From contig NC_003902.1 of assembly GCF_000007145.1 (NCBI RefSeq), forward strand, positions 2,456,497 through 2,488,496: 32,000 nucleotides of DNA, read 5' to 3'. The DNA comes from Xanthomonas campestris pv. campestris str. ATCC 33913 (GTDB taxonomy: Bacteria; Pseudomonadota; Gammaproteobacteria; Xanthomonadales; Xanthomonadaceae). The translations under genes were made by a program, and so were the position numbers. Positions within the stretch are counted from its first letter, which is position 1; every line of letters starts with the position of its first letter. The notes beneath the pieces were generated by a model. It saw nothing but the letters and a program-made list of their open reading frames with translations. It did no database searches and was not told the origin of the DNA. Shown in pieces: positions 7,473 through 32,000 of the stretch.

Positions 7473-7556
7473 GCCCGGGTGGCGAAATTGGTAGACGCAA
7501 GGGACTTAAAATCCCTCAGCCGCAAGGCTATGCGGGTTCGACCCCCGCCCCGGGCA
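7473..7556 (+). tRNA. tRNA-Leu (anticodon UAA), class II with long variable arm
   Basis: Hand-folded. Acceptor GCCCGGG/CCCGGGC; D arm GCGAAATTGGTAGACGC; anticodon arm AGGGA-CTTAAAA-TCCCT (anticodon TAA); variable arm CAGCCGCAAGGCTAT; T arm GCGGG-TTCGACC-CCCGC; discriminator A. CCA is not encoded. Confidence 0.9.
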
Positions 7557-7571
7557 CACTCCCCCACGCCA

Positions 7572-9278: not shown

Positions 9279-9284
9279 TGAATT

Positions 9285-9302
9285 TGGAGCGGGAAACGAG
9301 TC
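9285..9302 (-). other. tRNA-Gly 3-prime-end remnant (18 nt, with CCA): putative att scar of an integrative element
   Basis: The minus strand reads GACTCGTTTCCCGCTCCA. The last 16 nt equal the 3-prime end of E. coli tRNA-Gly(GCC) (...GTCTCGTTTCCCGCTCCA). No tRNA body lies upstream of it. Confidence 0.6.
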
Positions 9303-9529
9303 ATGCTTTAGAGCGCTAAGTCGTTGATTCCCAATTACTTTCTTCGCCTCGGTGCTTAGCGAAGGCCTGAATTCTAGCCTTGTTTTTCGCCCTATGCAAC
9401 AAAATTCGTCCAAAGACTTCCATCAAGGTTCAAGGACTGCCATCCGCGTCGTCGCAACGGACGCAGAGCCCTACCGAAAAACGCACCACAGATACGCGAC
9501 ACTACCCGCCTCATGTTGAGCAGTGATCC

Positions 9530-9723: not shown

Positions 9724-10005
9724 TTATTCATCGAGGCTTTCTTCGGTTTCGACAGCGAGCTCTGCAGCTTCGGGAGCCTGTGCTTCCTGCTCGACAGGAG
9801 TGGCGGCGCGCTCGCTGGCTTCGTCTTCGGACTCGGCGGACTTCGGCTCGGCCTTGTAGACCATGTTGCCGTCGACCTTGATCCAGCTGATATACCGCAG
9901 ACGAGCCTTGACACTGACGCCCTGTTCGCTGGCGCGCTCACCTTTTTCATAGGTGAAGACGTCGGTCCACAGATCGCCCAGGCGAAAGCCGATCAGCACC
10001 TTCTT
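9724..10005 (-). pseudogene. C-terminal fragment of a DUF3577-like (ICE-associated, SSB-like acidic tail) protein, truncated by a MITE
   Basis: The frame reads ...LPNLKKVLIGFRLGDLWTDVFTYEKGERASEQGVSVKARLRYISWIKVDGNMVYKAEPK followed by an acidic tail. It has no true start and runs straight into the MITE end at 10006. The family call is from recollection. Confidence 0.4.
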
Positions 10006-10095
10006 GAGATTAGGCAGGGATTCGTATAAAAAACAGCCAAAAGTGAGCTAACTCACCGTCAATAAAGGATTTTTCACGAATTCCTGCCGAGCCTC
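10006..10095. mobile_element. MITE copy 1 (~90 bp, terminal inverted repeats)
   Basis: GAGATTAGGCAGGGATTCGT...ACGAATTCCTGCCGAGCCTC. The interior (AAAAAACAGCCAAAAGTGAGCTAACT) matches the reverse complement of the element at 26126-26216. Confidence 0.7.
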
Positions 10096-10111
10096 GATTC
10101 GGCGTGCACCT

Positions 10112-10146
10112 GGGGTTACACCCCGGAACCCCAGAAAGAAAGCTGC
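10112..10146 (+). repeat. Tn3-family-type terminal inverted repeat (outer GGGG on the left, element interior to the right)
   Basis: GGGGTTACACCCCGGAACCCCAGAAAGAAAGCTGC. It matches the reverse complement of 23297-23331 at 21 of the first 26 positions, including a 15-nt identical core CCGGAACCCCAGAAA. Confidence 0.55.
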
Positions 10147-10661: not shown

Positions 10662-11108
10662 ATGATGTGCATGTCCATGCGTCAATATGCTGCCTGCGTT
10701 GCGCTGCTCGGAAGTTGCGTCTCGCTCGCCCAGGCCGCGCCAACCTGCAACAACCCGGTAGGCGAGTGGAAAAACCAGCTGGGTTCCACACTCACGATCA
10801 CCGCTGTCCATACCTCCGGACAGCTCTTGGGCACGTACATCTCGCCTTCCGGCACCACTGGTGGGGTGTATCCGCTAGTCGGCTGGTTTGCCAACCCGGT
10901 TGCCGGGTCGACGGCATTGAGCAAACTGCCCGCCATCACTTTTTCGGTGCAGTGGGGTAATTACGGCAGCATGACTGCCTGGACCGGCACCTGTGATGCG
11001 TCTGGCGGCGTACCGGCCATCACCACAGTCTGGCACTTGGTGCGGACCGGTTCCCAGTATTCGTGGGACCACATGCTCACCAACAGCGATGTTTTCGTCC
11101 CCAAATGA
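10662..11108 (+). CDS. Secreted avidin/streptavidin-family biotin-binding protein
   Basis: GAGGAG Shine-Dalgarno before the ATG and signal peptide ...CVSLAQA|AP. Collinear with the streptavidin core: WKNQLGSTLTI, GTYISPSG, FSVQW, SMTAWTG, TTVWHL, SWDHML, NSDVF. This keeps the Asn/Ser/Tyr/Trp/Asp biotin-contact positions. There are two Cys residues (TCNNP, GTCDA). Confidence 0.85.
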   Translation: MMCMSMRQYAACVALLGSCVSLAQAAPTCNNPVGEWKNQLGSTLTITAVHTSGQLLGTYISPSGTTGGVYPLVGWFANPVAGSTALSKLPAITFSVQWGNYGSMTAWTGTCDASGGVPAITTVWHLVRTGSQYSWDHMLTNSDVFVPK

Positions 11109-11230
11109 CAGAGAGCTGTCGCCAACAAAACGCCCAGCGCAGAGGCTGGGCGGTTGGTGACAGCTCGCAGTATTCGTGAGACCAAGGTCATAGCCGGTGC
11201 CCCCTGCTCTTCAACCAAAGGAAATGCTCA

Positions 11231-12961
11231 ATGTTGCGATTGAACGGATTACGCGTGTTGTTACGGACGCTGGCGGCAATCGGCGCTTTGCTGACAACGG
11301 CATCGGCGTCGGCCGCCTGCGCCGACCTGCTCGCGCTGTCGCTGCCGTCCACCACAATCAGCAGCGCTACCGACGTGCCCGCCGGTGCCTTCACCGCGCC
11401 GGACGGTACCGTGCTCGACGCACTGCCGGCGTTCTGTCGCGTCGTCGGTGTGTCGCGGCCGGCCAGCGATTCGGAAATCGGGTTCGAGGTGTGGATCCCG
11501 TCCGCAGGCTGGAACCAGAACTACCTGCAGGTCGGTACGGTCGTCTTCGCCGGCAACATTCAATACAGGTCGCTTGGTTTCGCCTTGCGCCGCGGCTATG
11601 CGACCGCAACCACCGATGGCGGCCACCGGGCGTCGATCGGCGATGCGAGCTTTGCGCGCGGCCACCCGCAGAAGATCCTCGACTGGGGCTATCAGGCGCT
11701 GGCCACGACGATCTCCAACGGCAAGGCGCTGGTCTCCGCCTACACGCACCGCGCGCCGCACTATTCCTACTTTTTCGGCGCCTCCAATGGTGGCCGCGAT
11801 GCGCTGATCGCAGCGCAGCGCTTTCCGGGCGCCTTCGACGGCATCATCGCCGATGCGCCTTCCAGCGCCTGGGTCCACAACGCGTTTTCCTGGCTGTGGT
11901 CGCAGGACGCCCAGTTCGGCAGTCCGGCGGCGACTATCTCGGCGGCCAAGCTGCCGGCCATCCAGGCCGCCGCGCTCGCCCAATGCGATGCAAAGGACCA
12001 CACGGCCGACGGCGTGGTCAACGACCCGCGCCGGTGCCGTTTCGATCCCCGCGTGCTGTTGTGCAGCGGTGCCGAGAGCGACGCGTGTCTCACTGCGCCG
12101 CAACTGCAAACGCTCGCCGCCATCCTTGCCGGCCCGGTCAACCCGCGCACCGGCGAGCGCATCTACTACGGTTTCGAGCCGTTCGCAGTCGCCACGCCGG
12201 GGACATGGAACCAGTGGATCACCGGCAACGCCGCCGTTCCCGGCGGGGGCCATGCGGTGCTCGCCAACCAGTTCTTCGCCAACATGGTGTTCGATACCGG
12301 CAGCGCCGGGTTCGACCATACGCAAGTGAACTTCGATACCGATGTCGCCCGCGCCGAACGCAAGCCGGTCGCCGGCCAGCCGCTGGCCAGCGTCATCGAC
12401 GCCACCTCCGCAGATCTGAGCGGATTTCGCGCGCGCAACGGCAAGATGATCCTGTATATCGGCTGGGAAGATCCGGTGGTTCCGCCGCGAGGCGCGATCA
12501 CCTATTACGAATCGGTCGTGGCCAGGCAATGGCTGGACAACCCGCAGATCAGCAGGGCCGAGGATGCGCTTGCGCAGACCCAGCAGTTCTTCCGCCTGTT
12601 CATGGTGCCCGGCATGGGCCACTTCACCGGCGGACCCGGCACGTCGGCCTTCGGCGCGCTGTATGGGCCGCCCGCATTGGCCATCGATCGCCAGCACGAC
12701 GTGTTGGCGGCGATGGAGGCGTGGGTCGAGCAAGGCATCGCCCCGGAACGCATCGTCGCGGCAAAATACGCCAATGACGACCCGGCCAAGGGGGTGGTCC
12801 GCACCCGGCCGCTCTGCCACTATCCGCAATCGGCGGTGTGGATCGGCCAGGGCAGCGCCGAAGATGCGCAGAACTTTATCTGTGTGGACAGTCCGCGCGG
12901 TGCCTACCTCGACGCGGCACCTGCGCGCGCGCCGCTGCCAAGCTCGGCGCAAAGCCGATAA
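11231..12961 (+). CDS. Secreted tannase/feruloyl esterase family hydrolase
   Basis: 576 aa with a signal peptide (LLTTASASAAC). Nucleophile elbow FFGASNGGRDAL (G-x-S-x-G), Cys-rich lid region and MVPGMGHFTGG histidine motif, all characteristic of the tannase/feruloyl esterase family. Confidence 0.8.
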   Translation: MLRLNGLRVLLRTLAAIGALLTTASASAACADLLALSLPSTTISSATDVPAGAFTAPDGTVLDALPAFCRVVGVSRPASDSEIGFEVWIPSAGWNQNYLQVGTVVFAGNIQYRSLGFALRRGYATATTDGGHRASIGDASFARGHPQKILDWGYQALATTISNGKALVSAYTHRAPHYSYFFGASNGGRDALIAAQRFPGAFDGIIADAPSSAWVHNAFSWLWSQDAQFGSPAATISAAKLPAIQAAALAQCDAKDHTADGVVNDPRRCRFDPRVLLCSGAESDACLTAPQLQTLAAILAGPVNPRTGERIYYGFEPFAVATPGTWNQWITGNAAVPGGGHAVLANQFFANMVFDTGSAGFDHTQVNFDTDVARAERKPVAGQPLASVIDATSADLSGFRARNGKMILYIGWEDPVVPPRGAITYYESVVARQWLDNPQISRAEDALAQTQQFFRLFMVPGMGHFTGGPGTSAFGALYGPPALAIDRQHDVLAAMEAWVEQGIAPERIVAAKYANDDPAKGVVRTRPLCHYPQSAVWIGQGSAEDAQNFICVDSPRGAYLDAAPARAPLPSSAQSR

Positions 12962-13186
12962 GTCGGGCGTTCTTGCGCCGCGCCTGGGTATCCAGCTTAG
13001 GGCTGTCCAGGCCCAGGACCGCCATGACCTGCCCCGCCCGGTTGACGCCCAGATCGCTCAAGGTGCCTTCTCCAGGCCGACCAACGTCTTACGAGACAGG
13101 CAGCTCAGGTGCGCCAACTGCGCTTGGGACAGGCCCAGCTCAGCGCGCCGGGTCCGCACGGCATGGCCGATATCGATGAGATTCAT
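12876..13186 (-). pseudogene. XRE/HipB-like helix-turn-helix regulator, frameshifted
   Basis: ATG at 13186 gives MNLIDIGHAVRTRRAELGLSQAQLAHLSCLSRKTLVGLEKAP*, with the stop at 13058-13060. The -1 frame continues TLSDLGVNRAGQVMAVLGLD. A single missing G (AAGGGCACC to AAGGCACC) would restore ...GLEKGTLSDLG.... Confidence 0.65.
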
Positions 13187-13290: not shown

Positions 13291-13376
13291 ACGCTGCCAT
13301 AACTCTCATCTGCCGAAATGTCAGGCAATTAGCGCTAATATCGTGGCAGAGCGTAACGGGGCGTAATGCATGTTAC

Positions 13377-13385
13377 GGGGGGGGG
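13377..13385. repeat. Homopolymer G9
   Basis: A run of nine G lying between the two in-frame candidate start codons (13366 and 13402) of the giant ORF. Confidence 0.95.
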
Positions 13386-13401
13386 CACCACAGGGGATTC
13401 C

Positions 13402-16400
13402 ATGGACGAGACACAACCGCAAGCTTCGGCCGTCGCTGCCGAACTGAAGATCGACGTAACCCTGATCGCCAAATTGAACTTGGCGGACTTTCAGAATGCA
13501 GTTCCACTGGTCCGGGACCTCTGGCTGATCAACGAAACCGATCAGGTACATGAGCAGGTCGAGTTAGTCCTGACGTCCGACCCGCCTTTTCTTAAGCCGC
13601 GCCGTTGGCGGATTGATGCGCTGGCAGCAGGCTCCCGCTATCCGATCCGCGATCTGGATGTGAACCTGGATGGTGGACTGCTGGCTCGGCTGACCGAAGC
13701 CGAGACGGCCACGGTTTCTCTGGCATTGCGTTCCGTGGCCGCGGATGCCTCCAACACAGCTCTCGCCCAGCGCGATACCCATCTTGAGCTGCTGCCACGC
13801 AATCAATGGGGCGGCATCTCGCATCTGCCCGACCTGGTCGCCGCGTTCGTTCAGCCCAACGATCCGGCCGTGGATCGGCTACTCAAGCGCACCGCCGAGG
13901 TACTGCGTCAGAACAATCGCAACCCCGCACTGGATGGCTACACCGGCGGCGCCAAGCGCGCCTGGGAACTTGCCTCGGCCCTCTGGGGGGCCACGGCTGG
14001 CATGCAACTGGACTATGCCCTGCCCCCCGCCAGCTTCGAGCAATCGGGCCAGAAGGTGCGCAGCCCCAGCCAGATCGAAAGCTCGGGCCTGGGAACGTGT
14101 TTCGACCTCACGTTGCTGTTCTGCGCCGCACTCGAGCAGGCAGGCTTGAACCCCCTGCTGGTCTTCACCGAGGGCCATGCCTTTGCAGGCGTCTGGCTGC
14201 AATCGGAGGAGTTTTCAAATACGGTCGTCGACGACGTGACCGCATTGCGCAAGCGCCTCAGGCTCAAGGAACTGGTGCTGTTCGAGACCACTCTGATCAC
14301 CCAGCGCCCCACCGTTCCCTTCAGCTATGCCACCGACCGCGGTGCCCAGCAGGTTGACGAATCTCAGGATGCGGGATTCCGCCTGGCCGTGGACATCCGC
14401 CGGGCGCGGCTGCAGCGCATCAAGCCATTGGCCAGTGCAGAAGCGGCAGTTGCTGCGGTGTCAGACAGTGAAGCGACGCTGTCTTCACCCGCCGTATCAG
14501 TGATCGAAGACGCGCCTGACCTTCCCGATAGCCCGCCATTCAAAACAGAAGACGCCAGCCAACTTGATCCCAAGGACCGGTTGCTTCGCTGGCAACGCAA
14601 GCTGCTGGATCTGTCGCTTCGCAACAACTTGCTCAACTTCAAGGCCGGCAAGAAGGCACTCAAACTGGAAGCACCGGACCCCAGCACGCTGGAAGACCTG
14701 CTGGCCAGCGGCCAGTCCCTGAAGCTGCGCCCGCGCCCGGACCTGATGGACGGCGCTGATCCACGCGATCAGGCCATCTACGAAGCCCGTGAACGTGAGA
14801 ACGTGCGCCGCGCGCACGCGCTGGAAGCCCTGCAGAAACGCGAGGTTTTCGTTGGCGTTCCCGAAACCGAGCTCGACTCACGTCTGGTCGATTTGTTTCG
14901 CAGCGCTCGCACGACCTTGCAGGAAGGCGGCGCCAACACGCTTTATCTCGCGCTGGGCTTCCTGTCCTGGACCCGTGAAGACCGTGACGGTCAGCGCTAC
15001 CGCGCCCCCTTGGTCCTGGTGCCGGTCAGCCTGCAGCGCAAGAGTGCTCGCTCGGGCTTCACGCTCAGCCTGCATGACGATGAGCCTCGCTTCAATCCGA
15101 CCTTGATCGAGATGTTGCGTCAGGACTTCGAACTGAACCTGGGCGCGGTCGAAGGCGAACTGCCGCGAGACGATGCCGGCTTGGACGTCACTGCGGTCTG
15201 GAAGGCTGTCGGCCACGCGATCAAGGACATCAAGGGCTGGGAAGTGACCGAGGACGTGGTGTTGTCCATGTTCTCGTTCGCCAAGTACCTGATGTGGAAA
15301 GATCTGGCCGAGCACAGCGAGCAGTTGCGCGAGAACCCGGTCGTGCGCCACCTGCTGGACACCCCGCGCGATGCCTATCCTCCGGGTGCTCCGTTCCCGC
15401 AAGTGCGCGAACTGGACCAGCACTTCGACCCCAAGCAGGTGTTCTGCCCCTTGCCGGCGGATTCCTCGCAGTTGTCGGCCGTGCTGGCCGCCTCGCAGGG
15501 CAAGGACTTCGTGCTGATCGGTCCCCCTGGGACCGGCAAGAGCCAGACCATCGCCAACCTGATCGCCCAATCCCTGGCACAGGGCCGGCGCGTGCTCTTC
15601 GTGTCCGAGAAGATTGCGGCGCTGGACGTCGTCTACCGGCGCCTGCGCGAAATTGGCCTGGGCGAGTTCTGCCTGGAACTGCACTCGAGCAAGGCCCGCA
15701 AGCTCGACGTGCTGGCGCAGTTGCAGTCGGCTTGGTCCAGCAGCGGCCAGACCGATGCCGAGCAATGGCGGGCCGAAGCCGAGAAGCTTAAACGTCTGCG
15801 CGATGCGCTGAACATCTATGTGGAACGCCTTCACCAGCGTCGCCGCAACGGCCTGAGCCTGTTTGATGCTATCGGCACCGTCAGCGCGGGACACGACATC
15901 CCGACACTCCCCTTGGCCTGGCTCTCGGCCGATCAGCACGATCATGCCGGCATCGACCAGTTGCGCAGTGCCGTGGACCGCTTGGAAGTCAATGCACAAG
16001 CCATTGGCCATGCCGCGCTGGCGCAGCACCCCTTGGCGCTGGTCGGCCATAGAGACTGGTCGCCCACCTGGCAACAGCAACTGATCGCCGCTGCGCGTGA
16101 CGTGCTTCCCGCCGCCCAGGCGACAATCGAGTCAGCCCACGCGTTTGTCCAGGCCATTGGCCTGCCCTCGCCCTTGTTGACGCCCGAAACCTGCGAAGCG
16201 CTACTGCTCCTCGCCCAACGTCTCACTTTGGCAGCGGGACACGATTGGCGCTTTGTCCTGCGGCCCGACGCACGCAGCCTGAGCCAACGCCTGCAGGAAG
16301 GTGCGGCACGGGTGCGCCGCCATGCGGAACTGAACACGCTGCTGTCCACGCCGTGGCCCGCTTCCGTCATAACCGCCTGCGCCGACGGGCTGGCCCTGCT

Positions 16401-19400
16401 CACCGAGCACCGGCAGACTCACGCAGAACTCGGCGAGCCCTGGCCGGTACGCATCACCGTGCAGCTCAACCAGGCGCTAGGCCTGCTGGCCCAGCTCAGC
16501 GAGCATCATGCGGCCCTGTCGGTTCCCTACGGCAAGACGATCGAACAGCTCGACGTCGCCCAGTTGCAGCAAATGTGGGAACAGGCCGAGCAGACGTTCT
16601 GGCCCAAGTCGTGGCTGGGCAAACGCAAGGTCACAACTCAACTGTCCAGCGCCACCACAGGCGGCTCGCAGCCTGACGTCGCCAACGATCTGCAGCATTG
16701 GAATGCCATCCGCGCCTTGCGCCAACGGATCCAGGCAATCGATCCAGGCCAGCAGTGTGCGGACGTCTGGGCAGGACTTGACACACAACAGGACAAGGTG
16801 AGCACGGCCCTGCGCTGGCAAATCGCCCTGGCTGCCGTACTCGAAGGCCAGGCCTGGGAAGACGACGGCTTCGACGCCATCGCCGGTGGCCAATGCGGAG
16901 CCACCCTGCAGGCCGATCTGCAACGGGCACGACGACTGCGCCAGCTCGACCAGGACATTGCTGCACATGCATCGCTGGAAACGGCGACCGACGGCCTATG
17001 GGCAGGCCATGCGACGCAATTCAACTGCCTGCGTGCCGCACTCGACTTCCTTAGCGACTGGCGCAGCCATGCCCAGCAAGGTGCATTGGATGCCCACACC
17101 TTGGTTGAGGAAGGCGCTTGCGGCCCCACGCTGGCACGCGACCACCAGACGCTTCGCCAGCGGGCCGATATGGAACAGGCGCTGGCTGCCCTGGACGACT
17201 TGCGCGAGTCCACCGCAGGCTTGTGGAAAGGTCTCGCGACCAACCTGGATGACCTCGAACAGGCCTGCCAGCTCCGAGAGGATCTGGCAGCCGTGCTGGC
17301 CCGCCTGGCCACTACGCCCGAACATATCTCTGCCTGCAAGGCACCGCTGCATACGTTATTGGGCGATGCCAATGCACTGCTGGAGCCAGGTGGTCGAATC
17401 GCGCTGGCCGGCGCCCGATACGTGGAAAAATGGGAACAGCTGCTACCCCGGCGCGAGGCACTCGCGACCACCGGACATTTTGCCGAGGCCGCCCAGACGC
17501 AGTGGCAGTCCATGTCACTCGACGGGCTGATCGAGCAAAGCCAGTCCATCGTGCGCGCCGAACACGGACTGCGCAGCTGGTGCGCATGGCGCCAGGCGCG
17601 CGACGAGGCGCTGGCACTGGGGCTGGCCACGCTGGTCCAGGGCATCAAGCAAGGCCAGGTCGGCCCGGACCAGGCACGCCGAACTTTCGAGGCCAACTAC
17701 GCGCGCTGGTGGCTCAACGCCGTGGTCGATCACGAGCCGGTCATCCGCGGCTTCGTCAGCGCCGAGCACGAACAGCGCATCCGCGATTTCCGCGAGCTCG
17801 ACGAGCGCTTCACCGCCCTGACCCGGGACTGGCTGCGCGCCCGCCTGTGCGCCGACCTGCCCTCGCAGGACAACGTCAGCCGCAACTCCGAATGGGGGCT
17901 GCTACGGCACGAGATGGGCAAGAAGCGTGCGCACCTGCCCTTGCGCGAACTGATGGCCCAGATTCCCGAGGCGCTGACCAAGCTCACGCCCTGCCTGCTA
18001 ATGAGTCCCCTGTCCATCGCACAGTACCTCCAGGCCGGGGCAAACGCCTTCGACCTGGTGATCTTCGACGAAGCCTCGCAGATCCCAGTCTGGGATGCGA
18101 TCGGCGCCATCGCCCGCGGCCACCAGGTCGTCATGGTCGGCGATCCCAAGCAGTTGCCGCCGACTTCCTTCTTCGACCGCGCCGAATCCGGGCTGGACGA
18201 CGAAGACGTCGAGGCCGACCTGGAGAGCATCCTCGACGAGTGCATCGGTGCTAACCTGCCGACACGGAATTTGAACTGGCACTACCGCTCCCGTCATGAA
18301 AGCCTGATCGCGTTCTCCAACCATGCCTACTACGACGGCGGACTGGTCACCTTTCCTTCCCCCGTCACCAACGATCGCGCGGTCAGCCTGCAGCCAGTCT
18401 CCGGCACTTACCAGAAAGGCGGTACACGGACCAACCCGGCCGAAGCGAAGGCGCTGGTGGCCGACGTGGTGGCGCGCCTGACGGCGCCTGGCTTCCGCGA
18501 AAGCGGGCTCACGATTGGGGTGGTCACCTTCAATGCCGAACAGCAGAAGCTGATCGAGGACCTGCTCGACGAGGCACGCCGCCAGGATCCAAGGCTGGAG
18601 CCCTATTTCGCCGAGAGCGAACTGGAACCGCTGTTCGTCAAGAACCTGGAAAGCGTACAGGGCGACGAACGCGATCTCATCTATTTCTCCATCACTTACG
18701 GTCCGGATCCCGCAGGCCAACTGGCCATGAACTTCGGTCCGCTCAACCGTCAAGGTGGCGAGCGCCGGCTCAACGTGGCCATTACACGCGCACGTCACGA
18801 ACTGCGTGTATTCGCCAGCTTCCACGCGGAGCAGATGGATTTGGCGCGAACGCAAGCAATCGGCGTGCGCGACCTCAAGCACTTCCTGGAATTCGCCGAA
18901 CGCGGTGCCCGTGCGCTGGCAGAAGCCAACTGCGGCAGCCTGGGTGGCTTCGACAGTCCCTTTGAACAGGCCGTGGCCGCAGCCCTGGCCCGGCGCGGCT
19001 GGCACGTCCAGCCGCAGATCGGCGCCTCCTCCTTCCGCATCGACCTCGGCATCGTCGATCCCGACGCGCCTGGACGCTACCTGGCAGGTGTGGAATGCGA
19101 TGGCGCCACCTACCATCGCAGCGCCACCGCACGCGACCGCGACAAACTGCGCGAGCAAGTCCTGCGCGGCCTGGGATGGGACATTGTTCGCGTCTGGTCC
19201 ACCGACTGGTGGATCGATCCGGCCGGCACGCTCGACAGACTGGATGCCCGCTTGCAAGCCGTACTCATAGCCCAGCGCGAGCAGCGCGCCGAACAGGCCG
19301 AGCGCGATGCCGAGGCCGAGAGCCTGGCGCAAGCGGCCATCGCGCAGGCCATAGCATCGGTGACGAAGCCAGACGGGGAAATGGCGCCCCCAGCTCAGGA

Positions 19401-20040
19401 CGCGGACCCGATCGCACCGGAAGTCTCGGCGACAGCTCCATCACAGCAAGTCGAGGAAGTCTTTGCTCGCCAGGTCTCCGCAGAAGCAGCCCATGCCAAT
19501 GCCGAAGAAACAACGCCACCGGAAGCCTCGCTCTATCGGATCACCGATCCCGCCGAAGCTGTGACCGGCGCCAATCCCGATCGCTTTTTCGACGGTGAGT
19601 ACAACGACATCCTGTTGACCATGATCGCCCACGTCGTCGATCACGAAGGGCCCGTGCTCGACGCCCTGCTGGCCCGCCGCATCGCCCGTGCCCACGGCTG
19701 GCTGCGTACAGGCGGACGCATCCGAGAGCGCGTTTTCCAAATCGCGCGTCCCCGCTATCGGACGACCGATGAAGAAGTCGGCACGTTCTACTGGCCCGAG
19801 CATCTGGATCCTGCGACAGAGCCTCCCTTTCGCGAGCCCGCCGACGAGGACAGCGTGCGGGCCGCTGATGAGATCAGTATCGCGGAATTGGCCTCCCTGG
19901 CTCGCGCCGTCATCGCACAGGGCACCCAAGGCGAAGGGATCTATCAAGCAATGGCGCGCAGGCTCAGGCTCCAACAGCTACGAGCAGCCAGCCGGGCACG
20001 TCTTGAAAATGTTGTGCGCTCTCTGCGTGCAGAGCCATGA
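13402..20040 (+). CDS. Giant multidomain helicase-nuclease, Hhe-like: transglutaminase-like N-domain, DUF4011-like region, Upf1-like SF1 helicase, Vsr/DUF559-like endonuclease, DUF3320-like C-terminus
   Basis: Start chosen at the ATG at 13402 (AGGGGA SD 7 nt upstream); an alternative ATG is at 13366.
- GTCFDLTLLFCAALEQAGL...EGHAFAGVWL: Cys/His papain-fold-like pair at nt 14098 and 14176.
- LLRWQRKLLDLSLRNNLLNF and GANTLYLALGFLSW: DUF4011-like.
- Walker A GPPGTGKSQT (15520-15546), DEASQ (18067-18081), VGDPKQLPPT, YRSRHESLI, QGDERD, LNVAITRAR.
- RIDLGIV...GVECDGATYH...DRDKLREQVLRGLGWDIVRVWSTDWW (18955-19215): Vsr/DUF559-type fold.
- ILLTMIAHVVDHEGPV...RIA tail. Confidence 0.85.
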   Translation: MDETQPQASAVAAELKIDVTLIAKLNLADFQNAVPLVRDLWLINETDQVHEQVELVLTSDPPFLKPRRWRIDALAAGSRYPIRDLDVNLDGGLLARLTEAETATVSLALRSVAADASNTALAQRDTHLELLPRNQWGGISHLPDLVAAFVQPNDPAVDRLLKRTAEVLRQNNRNPALDGYTGGAKRAWELASALWGATAGMQLDYALPPASFEQSGQKVRSPSQIESSGLGTCFDLTLLFCAALEQAGLNPLLVFTEGHAFAGVWLQSEEFSNTVVDDVTALRKRLRLKELVLFETTLITQRPTVPFSYATDRGAQQVDESQDAGFRLAVDIRRARLQRIKPLASAEAAVAAVSDSEATLSSPAVSVIEDAPDLPDSPPFKTEDASQLDPKDRLLRWQRKLLDLSLRNNLLNFKAGKKALKLEAPDPSTLEDLLASGQSLKLRPRPDLMDGADPRDQAIYEARERENVRRAHALEALQKREVFVGVPETELDSRLVDLFRSARTTLQEGGANTLYLALGFLSWTREDRDGQRYRAPLVLVPVSLQRKSARSGFTLSLHDDEPRFNPTLIEMLRQDFELNLGAVEGELPRDDAGLDVTAVWKAVGHAIKDIKGWEVTEDVVLSMFSFAKYLMWKDLAEHSEQLRENPVVRHLLDTPRDAYPPGAPFPQVRELDQHFDPKQVFCPLPADSSQLSAVLAASQGKDFVLIGPPGTGKSQTIANLIAQSLAQGRRVLFVSEKIAALDVVYRRLREIGLGEFCLELHSSKARKLDVLAQLQSAWSSSGQTDAEQWRAEAEKLKRLRDALNIYVERLHQRRRNGLSLFDAIGTVSAGHDIPTLPLAWLSADQHDHAGIDQLRSAVDRLEVNAQAIGHAALAQHPLALVGHRDWSPTWQQQLIAAARDVLPAAQATIESAHAFVQAIGLPSPLLTPETCEALLLLAQRLTLAAGHDWRFVLRPDARSLSQRLQEGAARVRRHAELNTLLSTPWPASVITACADGLALLTEHRQTHAELGEPWPVRITVQLNQALGLLAQLSEHHAALSVPYGKTIEQLDVAQLQQMWEQAEQTFWPKSWLGKRKVTTQLSSATTGGSQPDVANDLQHWNAIRALRQRIQAIDPGQQCADVWAGLDTQQDKVSTALRWQIALAAVLEGQAWEDDGFDAIAGGQCGATLQADLQRARRLRQLDQDIAAHASLETATDGLWAGHATQFNCLRAALDFLSDWRSHAQQGALDAHTLVEEGACGPTLARDHQTLRQRADMEQALAALDDLRESTAGLWKGLATNLDDLEQACQLREDLAAVLARLATTPEHISACKAPLHTLLGDANALLEPGGRIALAGARYVEKWEQLLPRREALATTGHFAEAAQTQWQSMSLDGLIEQSQSIVRAEHGLRSWCAWRQARDEALALGLATLVQGIKQGQVGPDQARRTFEANYARWWLNAVVDHEPVIRGFVSAEHEQRIRDFRELDERFTALTRDWLRARLCADLPSQDNVSRNSEWGLLRHEMGKKRAHLPLRELMAQIPEALTKLTPCLLMSPLSIAQYLQAGANAFDLVIFDEASQIPVWDAIGAIARGHQVVMVGDPKQLPPTSFFDRAESGLDDEDVEADLESILDECIGANLPTRNLNWHYRSRHESLIAFSNHAYYDGGLVTFPSPVTNDRAVSLQPVSGTYQKGGTRTNPAEAKALVADVVARLTAPGFRESGLTIGVVTFNAEQQKLIEDLLDEARRQDPRLEPYFAESELEPLFVKNLESVQGDERDLIYFSITYGPDPAGQLAMNFGPLNRQGGERRLNVAITRARHELRVFASFHAEQMDLARTQAIGVRDLKHFLEFAERGARALAEANCGSLGGFDSPFEQAVAAALARRGWHVQPQIGASSFRIDLGIVDPDAPGRYLAGVECDGATYHRSATARDRDKLREQVLRGLGWDIVRVWSTDWWIDPAGTLDRLDARLQAVLIAQREQRAEQAERDAEAESLAQAAIAQAIASVTKPDGEMAPPAQDADPIAPEVSATAPSQQVEEVFARQVSAEAAHANAEETTPPEASLYRITDPAEAVTGANPDRFFDGEYNDILLTMIAHVVDHEGPVLDALLARRIARAHGWLRTGGRIRERVFQIARPRYRTTDEEVGTFYWPEHLDPATEPPFREPADEDSVRAADEISIAELASLARAVIAQGTQGEGIYQAMARRLRLQQLRAASRARLENVVRSLRAEP

Positions 20041-20075
20041 CCTGAAGAGTTCGCCGACAGAACATGGAGGGAGCT

Positions 20076-21743
20076 ATGCCAAAAACCAGGCAACTCGGAC
20101 AAAAAAATGCGGCTATCACAACGACGCTTTCACTACGCCTGCTGCGTCCCGATAGGACAGTCGAGCAAGCGATCAGAGATACGAGCGCTGTGGCAGAGGT
20201 TGAGTGTGATTCTGGTCGCTTGTTTATAGCACAAGCTCCTGGAACTCCCCCCACTTGGCTCAGGGTCGTGAACCAGTTCACCAAACAGGGAGACCTGAAA
20301 CTCGAGAACAAGAGCTGTGCAGCAGTCCTATTTCTCGATATTCAGCCAGATGACAAGAGATTGCGAACTCGCACCTTTGCGCTTACGTTCGGCAGCGGTC
20401 ACCATGCCCTCGATACCGATGCATTTGTCCGAAACTTCGGCCTGAAGGTCACGCTCAACTCTGTTGCGCGGGGCGCACTAAAGAATCTTGATATCGCCAC
20501 GCTCGACAGTACGACCATTCAGAAACGCATTCAAGCAAGTAGAAAAGCCGATCTACAGGGTTTTGGAATTGATCTCCAGAACGATCTGTTGCGTCTCGCC
20601 GGTGGAGTTCCCACCGACACGTCATTTGCAAATGCGCTTGCAGGAAGAGACGCACTCACCCTAACCAGCAAGCTCTCAGCAACTGAAATTCCTGAAAAAT
20701 GCAAAACGGCGCTTAGGCTATTTGACGCCAACGATTACAAGAAAGACTATTCCTTTATTGATCAGATAATTCCCGTCCTGGACAAGAAAACACTTGCAGA
20801 TCTCGATGATATTGTCTTTAAAGAAATAAAAACCTTACTTGATGGAAAACCGTCAGACTTACACATAACTCTGCCGGAGATCATTGATCCGGAAGAGTCG
20901 AGTGACTTCGGATATTTCGGCATAGGCTTCAACTCTGGATCGAAGAAATCTTACGGCGAGCTTGCCATCGAGGACTATATTCTCGAATTACAGGCTGGAC
21001 GGCCACAAGAAATTTCTGACATAACAGAATTAAAGGCTAGCCATGAGATCCGAGTTGTAATTGACGGTCACGGAGATCGCCAGAGGCGGCGACGAGTCTA
21101 TGATTGTTTTGTGTACGAAGTGATCTACAAGAAGAAAACCTACGTGCTTTTCTCTGGAGAGTGGTATTGCATCGAAAGCAAGTTTTTCGACGCAGTGGAA
21201 AAAGACTATCAGGCGCTACTGGGGGTTTCATTCCACTTAAAAACGAAAGCCAAAAATGAGCAAGAGCTAATCTCAGAGCTCGACAAGAATAGCAACCTGC
21301 TAAATCTAGATAAAGTGAAAGCCTCGCCGTCAGGGGCAAAGGGCGCCAATCTTGAGCCTTGTGATTTCTTATCTCGCCGAAAGGAGTTTATTCACCTAAA
21401 AGACGGCCACGGCTCCGCCCCAATTAGCCATCTATGGAATCAAGGGCTCGTCTCGGCAGAAAGCTTTATTCGTGATGACGTTTTTCGAAAATCCATGCGA
21501 GACTCGGCAATCAAGCGACAAAAGGCTGCAAAAAAGTCAAAATTTGAGCTATTGCTACCCGATGGCCGTTCAAAAGTAACTTCCACGGACTACAAGGTGG
21601 TTTTTGGCATAATGCGACATCCGTACCAGCGGAGCAAACGACTCGGCCTTCCGTTTTTTAGCAAAGTGAGTCTTCGTGCCGTCGCAAGCCGGATCCAACT
21701 AATGGGCTATGCCGTGGAAGTACACCTTATTGAAAAGACATAA
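20076..21743 (+). CDS. Hypothetical 555-aa protein, low GC; possibly TIGR04141/DUF6119-type 'sporadically distributed' family
   Basis: ATG at 20076 is preceded by GGAGGGAG; an alternative ATG is at 20064. It starts 36 nt after the helicase-nuclease stop on the same strand. Lys/Asp/Phe-rich codon usage contrasts sharply with its neighbours. The C-terminal stretch EPCDFLSRRKEFIHLKDG weakly resembles a nuclease-type core. The family name is from recollection only. Confidence 0.8.
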   Translation: MPKTRQLGQKNAAITTTLSLRLLRPDRTVEQAIRDTSAVAEVECDSGRLFIAQAPGTPPTWLRVVNQFTKQGDLKLENKSCAAVLFLDIQPDDKRLRTRTFALTFGSGHHALDTDAFVRNFGLKVTLNSVARGALKNLDIATLDSTTIQKRIQASRKADLQGFGIDLQNDLLRLAGGVPTDTSFANALAGRDALTLTSKLSATEIPEKCKTALRLFDANDYKKDYSFIDQIIPVLDKKTLADLDDIVFKEIKTLLDGKPSDLHITLPEIIDPEESSDFGYFGIGFNSGSKKSYGELAIEDYILELQAGRPQEISDITELKASHEIRVVIDGHGDRQRRRRVYDCFVYEVIYKKKTYVLFSGEWYCIESKFFDAVEKDYQALLGVSFHLKTKAKNEQELISELDKNSNLLNLDKVKASPSGAKGANLEPCDFLSRRKEFIHLKDGHGSAPISHLWNQGLVSAESFIRDDVFRKSMRDSAIKRQKAAKKSKFELLLPDGRSKVTSTDYKVVFGIMRHPYQRSKRLGLPFFSKVSLRAVASRIQLMGYAVEVHLIEKT

Positions 21744-21874
21744 TAGGCATGTAAGAAACCATGGAGGTTACGCTGGAACCTACTGGAGATGGCTCCAGCA
21801 CGATCGACCCACTCGATCATCAACAGATCGCGTAAGTCCGCGTAAGTAAAGGGATTATCTGCGAGGGAATTAGC

Positions 21875-22258
21875 TCAATTGGTAATCCCCCCGCTTTTAG
21901 CGGACTCCAGAAGTGGAGTTATGCAGCCATTGCCAGTTTCATCGCTGGCGTGATGCCGCCTAGCGCCATGTTCGGGCTCATGGTTGTAAGTCCATAGCCA
22001 GCGCGTGGCTTTGTCCTGCACCTGCTCGATGGTGTCGAACAGGGTGCGGGCCAGCCAGGCGTAGCGGACCGTGCGGTTGTAACGTTCAACGTAGGCGTTC
22101 TGTTGTGGCTTGCCCGGCTGGATGTGCTCGATGCGGATGCCGTTGCGTTCCGCCCACGCCAGCAGTGCTGCGCTGATGTATTCGGGCCCGTTATCGCAGC
22201 GAATGACGCGCGGCTTGCCGCGCCACTCGATGACCTGCTCCAACGATCGGATCACCCG
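21875..22258 (-). mobile_element. IS3-family element, right-end fragment (C-terminal ~125 codons of OrfB integrase core)
   Basis: RVIRCDNGPEYISAALLAWAERNGIRIEHIQPGKPQQNAYVERYNRTVRYAWL (rve domain with the catalytic E region). The terminal sequence ...GGGGGGATTACCA ends in CA at nt 21880. The N-terminal two-thirds are absent. Confidence 0.75.
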
Positions 22259-22261
22259 GGC

Positions 22262-23111
22262 AGATGGCTACTACCACGTGTCTGACAAATACGTGGCGCT
22301 GTTCAGCCACTTCATTCCCTGTGGCGTGCACGAGGGCATCTACATCCTCGACGGCCTGTTGGCCAACACTTCCGACATCCAGCCTGAGATCGTCCATGGG
22401 GACACGCAGGCCCAAAGCTATCCGGTCTTCGGCTTGGCCCACATGCTGGGTATCCAGCTGATGCCCAGGATCCGAAACATCAAGGATCTGACGTTCTTCC
22501 GACCCGAACCGGGCAGGGCCTATAAGAACATCCAGGCGCTATTCGGGGACAACATCGACTGGCAGCTGATCGCCACCCATCTTCACGACATGCTGCGTGT
22601 GGTGATCTCCATCCGACTGGGCAAGATCACCGCGTCCTCGATCCTGCGCCGGCTTGGCACCTACAGCCGGAAGAACAAGCTGTACTTTGCTTTTCGGGAG
22701 CTGGGCAAGGCTGTTAGAACACTGTTCTTGCTGCGCTACATTGATGACAACAAGATTCGCAAAACGATTCATGCCGCGACCAACAAGAGCGAGGAGTATA
22801 ACGGCTTCGTGAAATGGGTCTTCTTTGGCAGCCAAGGGATCATTGCTGAGAACGTCCAACACGAGCAGCGCAAGATCATCAAGTACAGCCAGCTGGTGGC
22901 CAACATGATCATCCTCCACAACGTGGAGGGTATGAGCCGGACGTTGGCTGAGATGCGGAAGGAGGGGGTCGAACTGACGCCCGAGATCCTGGCCGGTCTG
23001 TCGCCTTATCGGACCAGTCACATCAATCGCTTTGGCGATTACCACCTAGATCTTGAAAGGGAAGTGGCGCCCTTGAGCTACACGGCCAAGGTCCTCGAAC
23101 AGGCCCCATAG
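22262..23111 (+). pseudogene. tnpA: Tn3-family transposase, C-terminal ~283 codons only
   Basis: Collinear with the Tn3 TnpA C-terminus: GIYILDGLL, EIVHGDTQAQSYPVFGLAHMLGIQLMPRIRN, LGKITASSILRRL, AFRELGKAVRTLFLLRYIDD, NGFVKWVFFG, QLVANMIILHNV, LSPYRTSHINRFGDYH. It abuts the truncated IS3 fragment head-on. Confidence 0.85.
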
Positions 23112-23296: not shown

Positions 23297-23331
23297 GGAC
23301 GGAATTTTCTGGGGTTCCGGCTTACACCCCC
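23297..23331 (-). repeat. Tn3-family-type terminal inverted repeat (outer GGGGG on the right, element interior to the left)
   Basis: The reverse complement reads GGGGGTGTAAGCCGGAACCCCAGAAAATTCCGTCC. It lies 186 nt beyond the tnpA stop and is the partner of 10112-10146. Confidence 0.6.
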
Positions 23332-26125: not shown

Positions 26126-26216
26126 GAGGGTCGGCAGGGATTCGTGTAAAAGACCTTTGCTGAGAGCCAGTTAGCTCACTTTTGGCTGTTTTTTAAACGA
26201 ATCCCTTCCGACCCTC
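26126..26216. mobile_element. MITE copy 2 (91 bp), inverted relative to copy 1
   Basis: GAGGGTCGGCAGGGATTCGT...ACGAATCCCTTCCGACCCTC, with 19/20 complementary termini. The interior GTTAGCTCACTTTTGGCTGTTTTTT is the reverse complement of the copy-1 interior. Confidence 0.8.
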
Positions 26217-26307
26217 AACATGGCGCCAGTTTCGCACCAGCCCACTCCGGCGGCCATGGGAAATCGGTACTGGCCCATCGCCCCCCGTTGTGTCTGAGGT
26301 ATTCGCC

Positions 26308-31595: not shown

Positions 31596-32000
31596 GCACC
31601 AAGTGTCATCGGCGACAGCGGCACGGCGCTAAAGGATGGCCATCCCATCGCCCGCATCCAGGCACGCAAAAACGCGATCCAGCGCAGCAGCCAGCGCAGG
31701 TTGTAGCCGGCGGCGCAGCCGAGTACGTGCAGCGCATCGCCTTGTGCACCTTTCAGCCTGCAGCGACGCAACCTGCAGTCGTCTTTCAGATGTCCGATCA
31801 CCGGTTCCACCGCCTGCCGTCGTTTGATCCAGCGCCATTGCCGTCGCGTCAGCGTCTTGGCCTTGCCACGATGGAGCACCTGCACGCCATCGACCTCGCG
31901 CCCGCGATAGCCCAGGTCCACGATCGCCACCGTCGGTTCTACGCTCAGATCCTGCAGCAACCCGCGTGTCTGCTCCAGCTGCTCGGCCAAGGTGTCGCCG
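31592..32000 (-). mobile_element. IS5-family insertion sequence, transposase C-terminal part (continues beyond the right edge)
   Basis: DDE_Tnp_1-type C-terminus: VDLGYRG...RRQAVEPVIGHLKDDCRLRRCRLKGAQGDALHVLGCAAGYNLRWLLRWI. The ORF ends at 31592 exactly where methyltransferase homology begins. Confidence 0.8.

What the first reader, a model, noticed from the sequence alone, without database searches (positions are those of the whole stretch)
13366..21743. Candidate two-gene defence module: Hhe-like giant helicase-nuclease followed by a low-GC TIGR04141/DUF6119-like ORF
Two same-strand genes lie 36 nt apart. No terminator hairpin is visible between 20040 and 20076, and the second gene has a strong GGAGGGAG SD, so they look co-transcribed.

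Gene 1 combines DUF4011-like, Upf1-type SF1 helicase, Vsr/DUF559-like endonuclease and DUF3320-like regions. As I recall, that is the architecture of the single-gene Hhe anti-phage system (Gao et al. 2020).

Gene 2 has no recognisable enzymatic domain apart from a weak nuclease-like stretch (EPCDF...EFIHLKDG, nt ~21350-21410). To my knowledge no function is assigned to its presumed family.

The pairing sits inside transposon-type repeats, next to IS debris and beside a second defence-like operon. That is classic defence-island context. A helicase-nuclease sensor with a separate effector or accessory gene would be a new configuration.
Basis: partly seen in the sequence, partly recalled or inferred. 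Interest (0 to 1): 0.75.

Follow-up and report, generated by a model that had tools for sequence, protein, structure and literature searches.

The report
ProA defence helicase plus hitch-hiking DUF6119
A known single-gene anti-phage helicase-nuclease (ProA family) is followed by an unrelated gene of unknown function (DUF6119) inserted right behind it; the two travel together in one lineage but normally occur apart, so this is probably two stacked genes rather than a new two-gene system.

Summary
A 2224-aa ORF (13366-20040) and a 555-aa ORF (20076-21743) lie 35 nt apart on the same strand. No terminator separates them, a GGAGGGAG Shine-Dalgarno precedes gene 2, and GC drops from 64% to 47%.

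- **Gene 1** passes NCBIfam's equivalog model "anti-phage protein ProA" (2434 bits, cut-off 1500). It fails the Hhe model (872 bits, cut-off 2000). It also matches PADLOC candidate PDC-S37.
- **Gene 2** is a full-length DUF6119/TIGR04141 protein with no PADLOC hit.
- **The pairing is lineage-specific.** None of 46 other DUF6119 loci has a ProA-like gene within 10 kb. None of 53 independently sampled ProA loci has DUF6119, including loci 91-92% identical to this ProA.
- **Where the pair does occur.** It is shared as an 8.5-kb block with Stenotrophomonas, Acidovorax and P. aeruginosa. Schauerella keeps an intact DUF6119 next to a deleted ProA.
- **The insertion point is sharp.** Homology to ProA-only loci ends 1-4 nt after the ProA stop codon.

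DUF6119 itself looks defence-linked. In 13 of 47 species it sits between hsdS and hsdR in type I restriction-modification operons. A confident structural model has no known fold match.

Verdict: stacked independent genes. The interesting lead is DUF6119, not the pair.

The parts
13366..20040 (+). Gene 1, a ProA-family anti-phage helicase-nuclease. It is 2224 aa from the first ATG; databases annotate 2212 aa starting at 13402.
   Evidence: ORF. NCBIfam NF058533 ProA scores 2434.5 bits against a cut-off of 1500, and Hhe scores 871.6 against 2000. PADLOC gives PDC-S37 at 1290.6 bits and Hhe at 601.7. dN/dS is 0.09-0.12 against orthologues.
14599..15117 (+). DUF4011 domain of gene 1 (residues 412-584).
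   Evidence: Pfam PF13195, E = 6.1e-53, model positions 1-158 of 158.
15520..15543 (+). Walker A motif GPPGTGKS of the SF1 helicase. The rest of the helicase core follows about 750 residues later (AAA_11/AAA_12, residues 1553-1817, including DEASQ at nt 18067-18081).
   Evidence: These columns are invariant in 16 ProA homologues. Pfam AAA_11, AAA_12, AAA_19 and AAA_30 match. The closest solved relatives are IGHMBP2, Dna2 and Sen1.
18961..19254 (+). MTES_1575 (Vsr/DUF559-like) endonuclease domain of gene 1 (residues 1866-1963).
   Evidence: Pfam PF18741, E = 1.1e-35, model positions 1-96 of 96. E1898, D1900 and H1905 are invariant.
19579..19728 (+). DUF3320 domain of gene 1 (residues 2072-2121).
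   Evidence: Pfam PF11784, E = 1.7e-19.
20041..20075 (+). 35-nt spacer between the genes, with the Shine-Dalgarno GGAGGGAG at 20066-20073. It holds no terminator and has no room for a promoter.
   Evidence: Sequence, terminator scan, fold.
20041..21856 (+). Low-GC DUF6119 cassette: the DNA present in pair-carrying genomes but absent from ProA-only loci.
   Evidence: The block shared with Stenotrophomonas, Acidovorax and P. aeruginosa spans window 13310-21856 at 86% nt identity. ProA-only loci lose homology at window 19959-20040. The junction alignment shows divergence 1-4 nt after the TGA. GC is 0.46-0.49.
20076..21743 (+). Gene 2, a DUF6119 / TIGR04141 protein of 555 aa.
   Evidence: Pfam 440 bits, full length. 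TIGR04141 399 bits. No PADLOC hit. dN/dS is 0.06-0.08.
21354..21407 (+). Invariant core motif of DUF6119: E427-P-C-D430-F ... I-H440-L-K442-D443-G. It lies in a predicted alpha-beta-beta-beta-alpha-beta unit.
   Evidence: These columns are invariant in 59 sequences spanning 41-92% identity.
12969..13186 (-). Frameshifted remnant (first 73 codons) of a divergently transcribed XRE-type HTH gene. The gene is intact (163 aa) upstream of ProA in a related metagenomic locus.
   Evidence: tblastn of the L069 163-aa protein hits 13186-13070 (92%) and 13067-12969 (85%) in two frames. A 42-aa HTH_3 (weak) gene is called at this position in Xanthomonas genomes.

Best explanation
Two independent genes are stacked in one transcription unit.

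**Gene 1** is a self-sufficient single-gene anti-phage protein of the ProA family. It combines a Upf1-like SF1 helicase split by a large insert, DUF4011, a Vsr-like endonuclease and DUF3320. By analogy with Hhe-type proteins, I infer that it loads on or translocates along invading or damaged DNA and cuts it with its own nuclease.

**Gene 2** is a separate, horizontally mobile 1.8-kb low-GC cassette encoding a DUF6119 protein. In one shallow ProA lineage it was inserted a few nucleotides after the ProA stop codon. It brought its own ribosome-binding site but no evident promoter, so it is most likely expressed by read-through from ProA (inferred).

Since then the pair has spread between Xanthomonas, Stenotrophomonas, Acidovorax, P. 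aeruginosa and Schauerella. In three of those genera (Stenotrophomonas, Acidovorax, P. aeruginosa) it travels with a divergent hipBA module. Neither gene needs the other.

DUF6119 is probably itself a defence or conflict gene. It is a ~550-aa single-architecture protein with an invariant E..D..HxK..SHxWxQG core. I tentatively read that core as a metal-dependent phosphodiesterase-like active site (inferred, not shown).
For: **Family assignments.**

**Census from the DUF6119 side.** 47 species-level loci, 39-86% identical, were examined with 10-kb flanks. None holds an intact ProA. One (Schauerella, L011) holds a ProA internally deleted from about window 13862 to 19897, next to an intact DUF6119.

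**Census from the ProA side.** None of 53 loci with a complete 3' end and at least 1.8 kb downstream carries DUF6119. These include intact ProA genes 86-92% identical to this one. No neighbour is conserved in more than 15 of 84 ProA loci.

**Insertion junction.** It lies 1-4 nt after the stop codon, and GC steps from 64% to 47% there.

**Patchy distribution.** ProA genes with and without DUF6119 are interleaved in an NJ tree.

**Selection.** Both genes are under purifying selection (dN/dS 0.06-0.12). dS between Xanthomonas and Stenotrophomonas is similar for the two genes, 0.52 and 0.63, so the block has been inherited together for some time.

**Defence association of DUF6119.**
- In 13 of 47 loci it sits as hsdM-hsdS-DUF6119-hsdR-YgjP. 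At its stop it overlaps the hsdR start by 4 nt in 12 of the 13 loci; at its start it abuts or overlaps hsdS (1-nt gap to a 43-nt overlap in the crude ORF calls).
- Elsewhere it lies beside HmaA, a HamB-like helicase, PD-Lambda-4_A, Gabija-type and AbiH genes, a type I R-M system and Shedu.
- Its GC is a median 6 points below the flanks.
- About 3050 clusters at 50% identity match at E <= 1e-10, and the 150 best-scoring clusters are all single-domain: mostly ~520-570 aa, the rest shorter (apparent fragments), none carrying a fused extra domain.
Against: - The 35-nt spacer has no terminator or promoter, which means operon-level coupling.
- The pair has stayed together and intact across four genera at dS of about 0.5-0.6. 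That is longer than a purely accidental neighbour might be expected to last.
- Comparative absence shows that coupling is not obligatory. It does not show that coupling is absent in this lineage.
- The publication behind the NCBIfam name 'ProA' could not be found. That ProA acts alone therefore rests on its solitary genomic occurrence and on my recollection that PADLOC 'PDC-S' denotes single-gene candidates.
- No biochemical function for DUF6119 was established.
Confidence: 0.6

Rival explanations
1. A genuine functional module in this lineage. On this reading DUF6119 is a plug-in accessory or 'guard' effector. It couples to large DNA-translocating helicase-nucleases: ProA here and HsdR in type I R-M operons. 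It fires when that partner is engaged or inhibited by a phage, as the anticodon nuclease PrrC does in the EcoprrI locus.
For: - The genes share a strand, lie 35 nt apart, and gene 2 has its own Shine-Dalgarno but no promoter or terminator between them.
- The block is conserved and both genes are under purifying selection across four genera.
- In 13 of 47 species DUF6119 occupies the slot between hsdS and hsdR, with a 4-nt overlap onto the hsdR start in 12 of the 13. From my own knowledge, that is the slot of prrC.
- Other DUF6119 loci abut helicase-containing systems: HmaA, a HamB-like helicase, UvrD-like proteins and a kinase-AAA_11 protein.
Against: - Intact ProA genes 86-92% identical lack DUF6119, and carriers are not monophyletic.
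- DUF6119 stays intact and constrained beside a deleted ProA in Schauerella.
- About 30 of 47 DUF6119 loci have no conserved partner.
- Helicases are common in defence islands, and no background rate was computed.
- There is no sequence or fold similarity to PrrC or any known effector.
Confidence: 0.22
2. DUF6119 is not a defence gene. It could be a selfish or mobile-element maintenance gene, for example a toxin, an addiction factor or a recombination factor. On this reading it accumulates in the same hotspots as defence genes, and its position behind ProA has no immune meaning.
For: - The family is sporadically distributed, sits below host GC, and is found on conjugative plasmids and an ICE. 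One distant copy lies between two integrases in a P. aeruginosa phage record.
- Neighbours include ArdC, transposases and umuC-type genes.
- PADLOC has no model for it.
Against: Embedding inside type I R-M operons, with a 4-nt overlap onto the hsdR start in 12 of the 13 loci (13 species in all), is hard to explain for a mere passenger. The repeated neighbours are bona fide defence systems.
Confidence: 0.13
3. The adjacency is an accident of a recombination hotspot, with no shared expression. Gene 2 would be transcribed from an unrecognised promoter inside the 3' end of ProA and regulated separately.
For: - The 3' flank of ProA is variable. Different cargo follows it in different genomes: T5orf172 plus a DEAD helicase in L069, hipBA in Bordetella, an integrase island in Comamonas, and housekeeping genes in Paracidovorax.
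- In P. aeruginosa a large DUF4011 gene is a fixed flank of defence hotspot cDHS1 (PMC10250203).
Against: The insertion is only 1-4 nt past the stop codon, and the spacer is conserved in all carriers. No sigma-70-like promoter was found upstream of gene 2, although that scan is crude for Xanthomonas.
Confidence: 0.05

Closest known systems
ProA anti-phage protein (NCBIfam NF058533) / PADLOC candidate PDC-S37
   Same: Gene 1 scores above the curated equivalog cut-off (2434.5 against 1500). It matches PDC-S37 at 1290.6 bits. It has the ~2200-aa architecture DUF4011 + split SF1 helicase + MTES_1575 nuclease + DUF3320. Like most family members it can stand alone.
   Different: Here and in a few related genomes, a DUF6119 gene has been added directly behind it. 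The primary publication for ProA was not found in the searchable library, so its tested properties are unknown to me.
Hhe (Gao et al. 2020; NCBIfam NF042953, PADLOC Hhe)
   Same: It has the same overall design, a DUF4011 helicase with a Vsr-like nuclease. Sequence similarity is significant over the C-terminal ~950 residues (871.6 and 601.7 bits).
   Different: It fails the Hhe equivalog cut-off of 2000 bits. ProA has a different, longer N-terminal ~400 residues and a longer insert. It is a sister family, not Hhe.
PrrC / EcoprrI (anticodon nuclease embedded in a type I R-M operon; from my own knowledge)
   Same: In 13 of 47 species DUF6119 occupies the same slot, between hsdS and hsdR, with a 4-nt overlap onto the hsdR start in 12 of the 13. 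This suggests a restriction-linked second-line role.
   Different: There is no sequence or fold similarity to PrrC. The window's DUF6119 copy is not in an R-M operon. No activity is known.
Hachiman HamAB (helicase sensor plus separate nuclease effector; PMC12278908)
   Different: HamA and HamB always co-occur, whereas ProA and DUF6119 almost never do. ProA already carries its own nuclease domain.
P. aeruginosa core defence hotspot cDHS1, flanked by a large DUF4011 gene (Johnson et al. 2023, PMC10250203)
   Same: A DUF4011 helicase gene sits next to a stretch where diverse defence and mobile cargo is swapped in and out. The same is seen downstream of ProA here.
   Different: I did not test whether the P. 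aeruginosa flank gene is a ProA orthologue. Here ProA is itself part of a mobile block, not a core gene.

Membership tests
ProA (NCBIfam NF058533, equivalog) | Whole-protein score above the curated cut-off of 1500 bits. | tested here: met
   2434.5 bits, E = 0.
ProA (NCBIfam NF058533, equivalog) | Architecture DUF4011 + SF1 helicase + MTES_1575 nuclease + DUF3320, with intact Walker A/B and nuclease residues. | tested here: met
   Pfam domains. GPPGTGKS, DEASQ and E1898/D1900/H1905 are invariant in 16 homologues.
ProA (NCBIfam NF058533, equivalog) | Confers phage resistance. | not testable with these tools
   This needs plaque assays. The source paper was not found.
Hhe (NCBIfam NF042953, equivalog) | Whole-protein score above the curated cut-off of 2000 bits. 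| tested here: not met
   871.6 bits, with only residues 1041-1990 aligned. PADLOC Hhe scores 601.7 bits against 1290.6 for PDC-S37.
DUF6119 / TIGR04141 | Full-length match above the gathering score. | tested here: met
   Pfam 440 bits (cut-off 27), model positions 1-524 of 524. TIGR04141 399 bits (cut-off 35).
PD-(D/E)xK nuclease superfamily (gene 2) | Alpha-beta-beta-beta-alpha-beta core with a D...(D/E)xK catalytic motif, recognisable by profile or fold comparison. | tested here: inconclusive
   The predicted topology of residues 395-514 fits, and E427/D430/H440-x-K442 are invariant. However, the motif is HxK rather than (D/E)xK. No other Pfam family hits at E <= 10. There is no PDB sequence hit. 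Foldseek finds nothing at E <= 0.001 in PDB or BFVD with a pTM 0.75 model.
Obligate two-gene defence system (ProA + DUF6119) | Co-occurrence of the two families across diverged homologues. | tested here: not met
   No intact ProA in 46 other DUF6119 loci. No DUF6119 in 53 ProA loci. Carriers are not monophyletic.
Obligate two-gene defence system (ProA + DUF6119) | Single transcription unit. | tested here: inconclusive
   The sequence is compatible: a 35-nt spacer with no terminator and no promoter. No expression data are available.
R-M-embedded accessory genes (PrrC-like arrangement) | Encoded inside a type I R-M operon between hsdS and hsdR. | tested here: not met
   This holds for 13 of 47 DUF6119 homologues but not for the window's copy, which follows ProA.

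The most novel reading that the evidence does not exclude
DUF6119 may be a large, so far unnamed family of immune effectors (at least ~3000 clusters at 50% identity) with a fold that has no solved relative. It would work as a plug-in second-line module for DNA-translocating restriction machines. It is hard-wired between hsdS and hsdR in one clade and attached to the ProA helicase-nuclease in this one. It would be released when the partner stalls on phage DNA or is blocked by it.
Probability: 0.2. Interest if true: 0.7.

Novelty: new member of a known kind. Interest (0 to 1): 0.4.

Why it matters
The proposed new helicase-sensor plus effector configuration is most likely an evolutionary juxtaposition. 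It should not be catalogued as a two-gene system on adjacency alone.

The useful result concerns gene 2. DUF6119/TIGR04141 is widespread and always has the same single-domain architecture. PADLOC 2.0 has no model for it, and NCBIfam 2026 does not name it as anti-phage. A confident model of it has no recognisable fold.

It repeatedly sits inside type I restriction operons and next to known defence systems. That makes it a concrete, cheap-to-test candidate defence gene. The Xanthomonas/Stenotrophomonas block offers a natural experiment with three states: ProA alone, the pair, and DUF6119 beside a dead ProA.

Tried and rejected
- **Literature.** None found a paper that defines ProA or discusses a function for DUF6119.
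- **Structure of DUF6119.** The second, from 59 sequences, reached pLDDT 79.1 and pTM 0.75. Foldseek against PDB (twice) and BFVD gave nothing below E = 0.06.
- **Other searches on gene 2.** A profile search of PDB sequences found nothing. A permissive Pfam scan of its halves gave only DUF6119.
- **A conserved 'ProB' partner.** Clustering ORFs in 84 ProA loci gave no candidate. The commonest neighbour, ~335 aa in 15 loci, has no NCBIfam or PADLOC match.
- **Transglutaminase-like N-terminus in ProA.** I suspected this from invariant C233/H259/D277. Neither Pfam nor a PDB profile search supports it, so it remains only a motif.
- **hipBA as part of the unit.** I considered this. hipBA is present in Stenotrophomonas, Acidovorax and P. 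aeruginosa, but in the window only a different, frameshifted HTH remnant is left.
- **Plasmid cross-check.** None of the 23 DUF6119 plasmids is among the 60 best ProA/Hhe-like plasmid hits. The other 420 hits were not listed, so this is weak evidence.

Full report
**1. What is in the window**

The window comes from a Xanthomonas chromosome. The exact gene-2 protein is encoded in about 5-Mb NCBI genomes whose proteins are named Xanthomonas. The window also holds the proteobacterial sRNA sX8 (Rfam RF02227) and the type III effectors XopH and AvrBs1.

The two ORFs exist as reported. One runs 13366-20040 (+), 2224 aa; the other runs 20064-21743 (+), 559 aa. Public annotation starts gene 2 at the second ATG, 20076, giving 555 aa. 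The spacer after the ProA stop is 35 nt. It holds GGAGGGAG two nt before that ATG and no terminator-like site. GC falls from 0.63-0.67 over gene 1 to 0.46-0.49 over gene 2.

**2. Identity of the genes**

Gene 1 carries four elements:
- DUF4011;
- a Upf1-type SF1 helicase split by an insert of about 750 residues (Walker A near residue 710; AAA_11/AAA_12 at 1553-1817);
- an MTES_1575 Vsr-like endonuclease;
- DUF3320.

NCBIfam places it above the curated cut-off of the equivalog 'anti-phage protein ProA' (2434.5 against 1500 bits). It falls well below that of Hhe (871.6 against 2000). PADLOC's best model is the candidate PDC-S37 (1290.6 bits), with Hhe at 601.7. Gene 1 is therefore a member of a named sister family of Hhe, not Hhe itself. 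Its helicase resembles IGHMBP2, Dna2 and Sen1 among solved structures.

Gene 2 is a full-length DUF6119/TIGR04141 protein. It has no PADLOC match.

**3. Is the pair a module? Census from the DUF6119 side**

A scan of one genome per species returned 47 DUF6119 loci, 39-86% identical, with 10-kb flanks. A tblastn search with gene 1 found no intact relative in any of them.

The single hit, in Schauerella fraxinea (L011), is informative. The first ~170 codons of ProA, now carrying stop codons, are joined to the last ~140 nt of ProA, followed by an intact DUF6119. This is an internal deletion of about 6 kb of ProA. DUF6119 there still shows dN/dS of about 0.08 against the other copies.

**4. Census from the ProA side**

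Homologues 86-88% identical in Bordetella, Comamonas and Paracidovorax are solitary. A metagenome scan gave 80 further loci.

Of the 53 independently found loci with a complete ProA 3' end and at least 1.8 kb downstream, none encodes DUF6119. These include L068, L069 and L102, whose ProA is 91-92% identical to the window's. That is closer than the DUF6119-carrying Stenotrophomonas copy, at 89%.

In an NJ tree the carriers are not monophyletic. This was an identity-based tree with no support values. No neighbour is conserved in more than 15 of 84 ProA loci, so there is no hidden 'ProB'.

**5. Where the pair does occur**

DUF6119 copies 91-94% identical occur in Stenotrophomonas maltophilia, Acidovorax and P. 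aeruginosa. All follow a 2213-aa ProA and are preceded by a divergent hipB-hipA pair. The surroundings differ completely: an ICE with type IV secretion genes, a Gabija/AbiH/RES island, and a type I R-M system.

At the DNA level the shared block is window 13310-21856, at 86% identity. dS between the Xanthomonas and Stenotrophomonas copies is 0.52 for ProA and 0.63 for DUF6119. dN/dS is 0.12 and 0.06 respectively. The block is therefore not brand new, and both genes are maintained.

Alignment of the junction shows that pair-carrying and ProA-only loci are homologous up to 1-4 nt past the TGA and unrelated afterwards. DUF6119 arrived as a cassette with its own ribosome-binding site directly behind ProA.

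In the metagenomic locus L069, ProA is followed instead by homologues of the window's T5orf172 and DEAD-helicase genes. In the window, DUF6119, the Tn3/IS debris and xopH-avrBs1 therefore lie between ProA and what may be its older neighbour.

**6. What DUF6119 is**

The family is large and architecturally uniform. About 3050 clusters at 50% identity match at E <= 1e-10. The 150 best-scoring clusters are all single-domain: mostly ~520-570 aa, the rest shorter (apparent fragments), none with a fused extra domain.

Its genes sit a median 6 GC points below their flanks. They occur on 23 plasmids, and one distant copy lies between two integrases in a P. aeruginosa phage record.

Thirteen of the 47 species loci share the same operon: hsdM, hsdS, DUF6119, hsdR, then a YgjP-like peptidase. 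The DUF6119 stop overlaps the hsdR start by 4 nt in 12 of the 13. At its start the gene abuts or overlaps hsdS, from a 1-nt gap to a 43-nt overlap in my crude ORF calls. From my own knowledge, this is the slot that prrC occupies in EcoprrI.

Other loci place DUF6119 next to known defence genes:
- HmaA (1583 bits), a HamB-like helicase and PD-Lambda-4_A (864 bits);
- KAP NTPase, UvrD-like and kinase-helicase proteins;
- Shedu.

Outside the R-M clade no single partner recurs.

Across both clades the invariant residues cluster in two places:
- a segment at residues 139-163, which is predicted with low confidence;
- E427-x2-D430 ... H440-x-K442-D443 ... S451-H452-x-W454-x-Q456-G457.

The second cluster lies in a predicted alpha-beta-beta-beta-alpha-beta unit. 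That topology is compatible with a PD-(D/E)xK-like site. However, the motif is HxK, and a model with pTM 0.75 has no Foldseek match at E <= 0.001 in PDB or BFVD. There is also no PDB sequence match. The nuclease reading stays a hypothesis.

**7. Interpretation**

The evidence best fits two independent genes stacked in one probable transcription unit, with confidence about 0.6. ProA is a self-contained helicase-nuclease defence protein. DUF6119 is a separate mobile cassette of probable defence function. It landed behind ProA in one lineage and has since been exchanged or lost.

A lineage-specific functional coupling cannot be excluded, and I give it about 0.2. On that reading DUF6119 is a guard or accessory of large DNA translocases: HsdR in one clade and ProA here. 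The arguments for it are the operon-like junction, the persistence of the block, and the R-M embedding.

The arguments against it are the patchy distribution within a shallow ProA clade, the survival of DUF6119 beside a dead ProA, and the absence of any conserved partner in most loci.

**8. Limits**

- The DUF6119 census sampled only relatives that share two peptide motifs (at least 39% identity). More distant members were not examined for neighbours.
- Gene calling in the loci was a crude ORF heuristic.
- No background rate of defence genes was computed.
- The ProA source paper was not found.
- Nothing here tests expression or activity.

Noticed in passing
These are plant-pathogen virulence/avirulence cargo, not defence genes.
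   Followed up: yes
window 9996-10137, 23306-23331 and 26148-26226: A ~140-nt element upstream of the avidin gene has an inverted copy that is split in two, with xopH-avrBs1 lying between the halves. The arms are 79 nt at 80% and 26 nt at 81% complementarity. It looks like Tn3-family or mobile-insertion-cassette ends around the effectors, and nominally brackets avidin, tannase, ProA and DUF6119 as well.
   Followed up: partly
window 21875-23111: An IS3-type integrase (rve) fragment on the minus strand overlaps a Tn3 DDE transposase fragment on the plus strand (model positions 131-389 of 389 only). This debris is absent from one otherwise identical Xanthomonas genome: L001 joins window 21803 to window 23314.
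   Followed up: partly
window 27360-31990 (-): This stretch holds a T5orf172/MUG113 protein, a 701-aa DEAD/ResIII helicase with a pseudomurein-binding repeat, and only the TRD + C-terminal part of an MmeI-like type IIG restriction-methylase, cut off by an IS (DDE_Tnp_1). In L001 the MmeI-like gene is intact (924 aa). A homologous T5orf172 + helicase pair directly follows ProA in metagenomic locus L069.
   Followed up: partly
window 12969-13186 (-): A frameshifted remnant of an XRE-type HTH gene lies divergent from ProA. It is intact (163 aa) in L069. In Stenotrophomonas, Acidovorax and P. aeruginosa the same position holds hipB-hipA. In Bordetella a hipA-HTH pair lies downstream of ProA instead. 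It could be a regulator or a toxin-antitoxin companion of ProA.
   Followed up: partly
window 13366-14600 (gene 1 residues 1-400): The ProA-specific N-terminal region has no Pfam match. It does have invariant C233, H259 and D277/D278 in a GLxTCFDL...GHAFxGxWL...VxDD pattern, reminiscent of transglutaminase-like cysteine-protease cores. A PDB profile search gave nothing.
   Followed up: partly
window 7473-7557 (+) and 9283-9364 (-): A tRNA-Leu(TAA) gene and the sRNA sX8 lie just upstream of the point where GC drops (about 8.5-11 kb) and the variable region begins. The whole stretch from about 9.9 kb onward may be an island integrated near this tRNA.
   Followed up: no
window 10662-12961 (+): An avidin-family protein (148 aa) and a tannase/feruloyl esterase (576 aa) lie immediately upstream of ProA. 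This is an unusual pairing in a plant pathogen. It is conserved in all ten Xanthomonas genomes examined.
   Followed up: no
L148 (Pseudomonas phage vB_PaeS-D14B, BK061476.1) 4899-6608: A distant DUF6119 homologue (26% identity over 95% of the query) lies between two integrase genes at the end of a 41.6-kb P. aeruginosa phage record. It is the only phage hit among 50,697 records.
   Followed up: partly
L031-L057 (13 loci), e.g. L042 7220-15620: The type I R-M operons that hold DUF6119 also end with a YgjP-like metallopeptidase gene whose start overlaps the hsdR stop. That makes a five-gene unit: hsdM-hsdS-DUF6119-hsdR-ygjP.
   Followed up: partly
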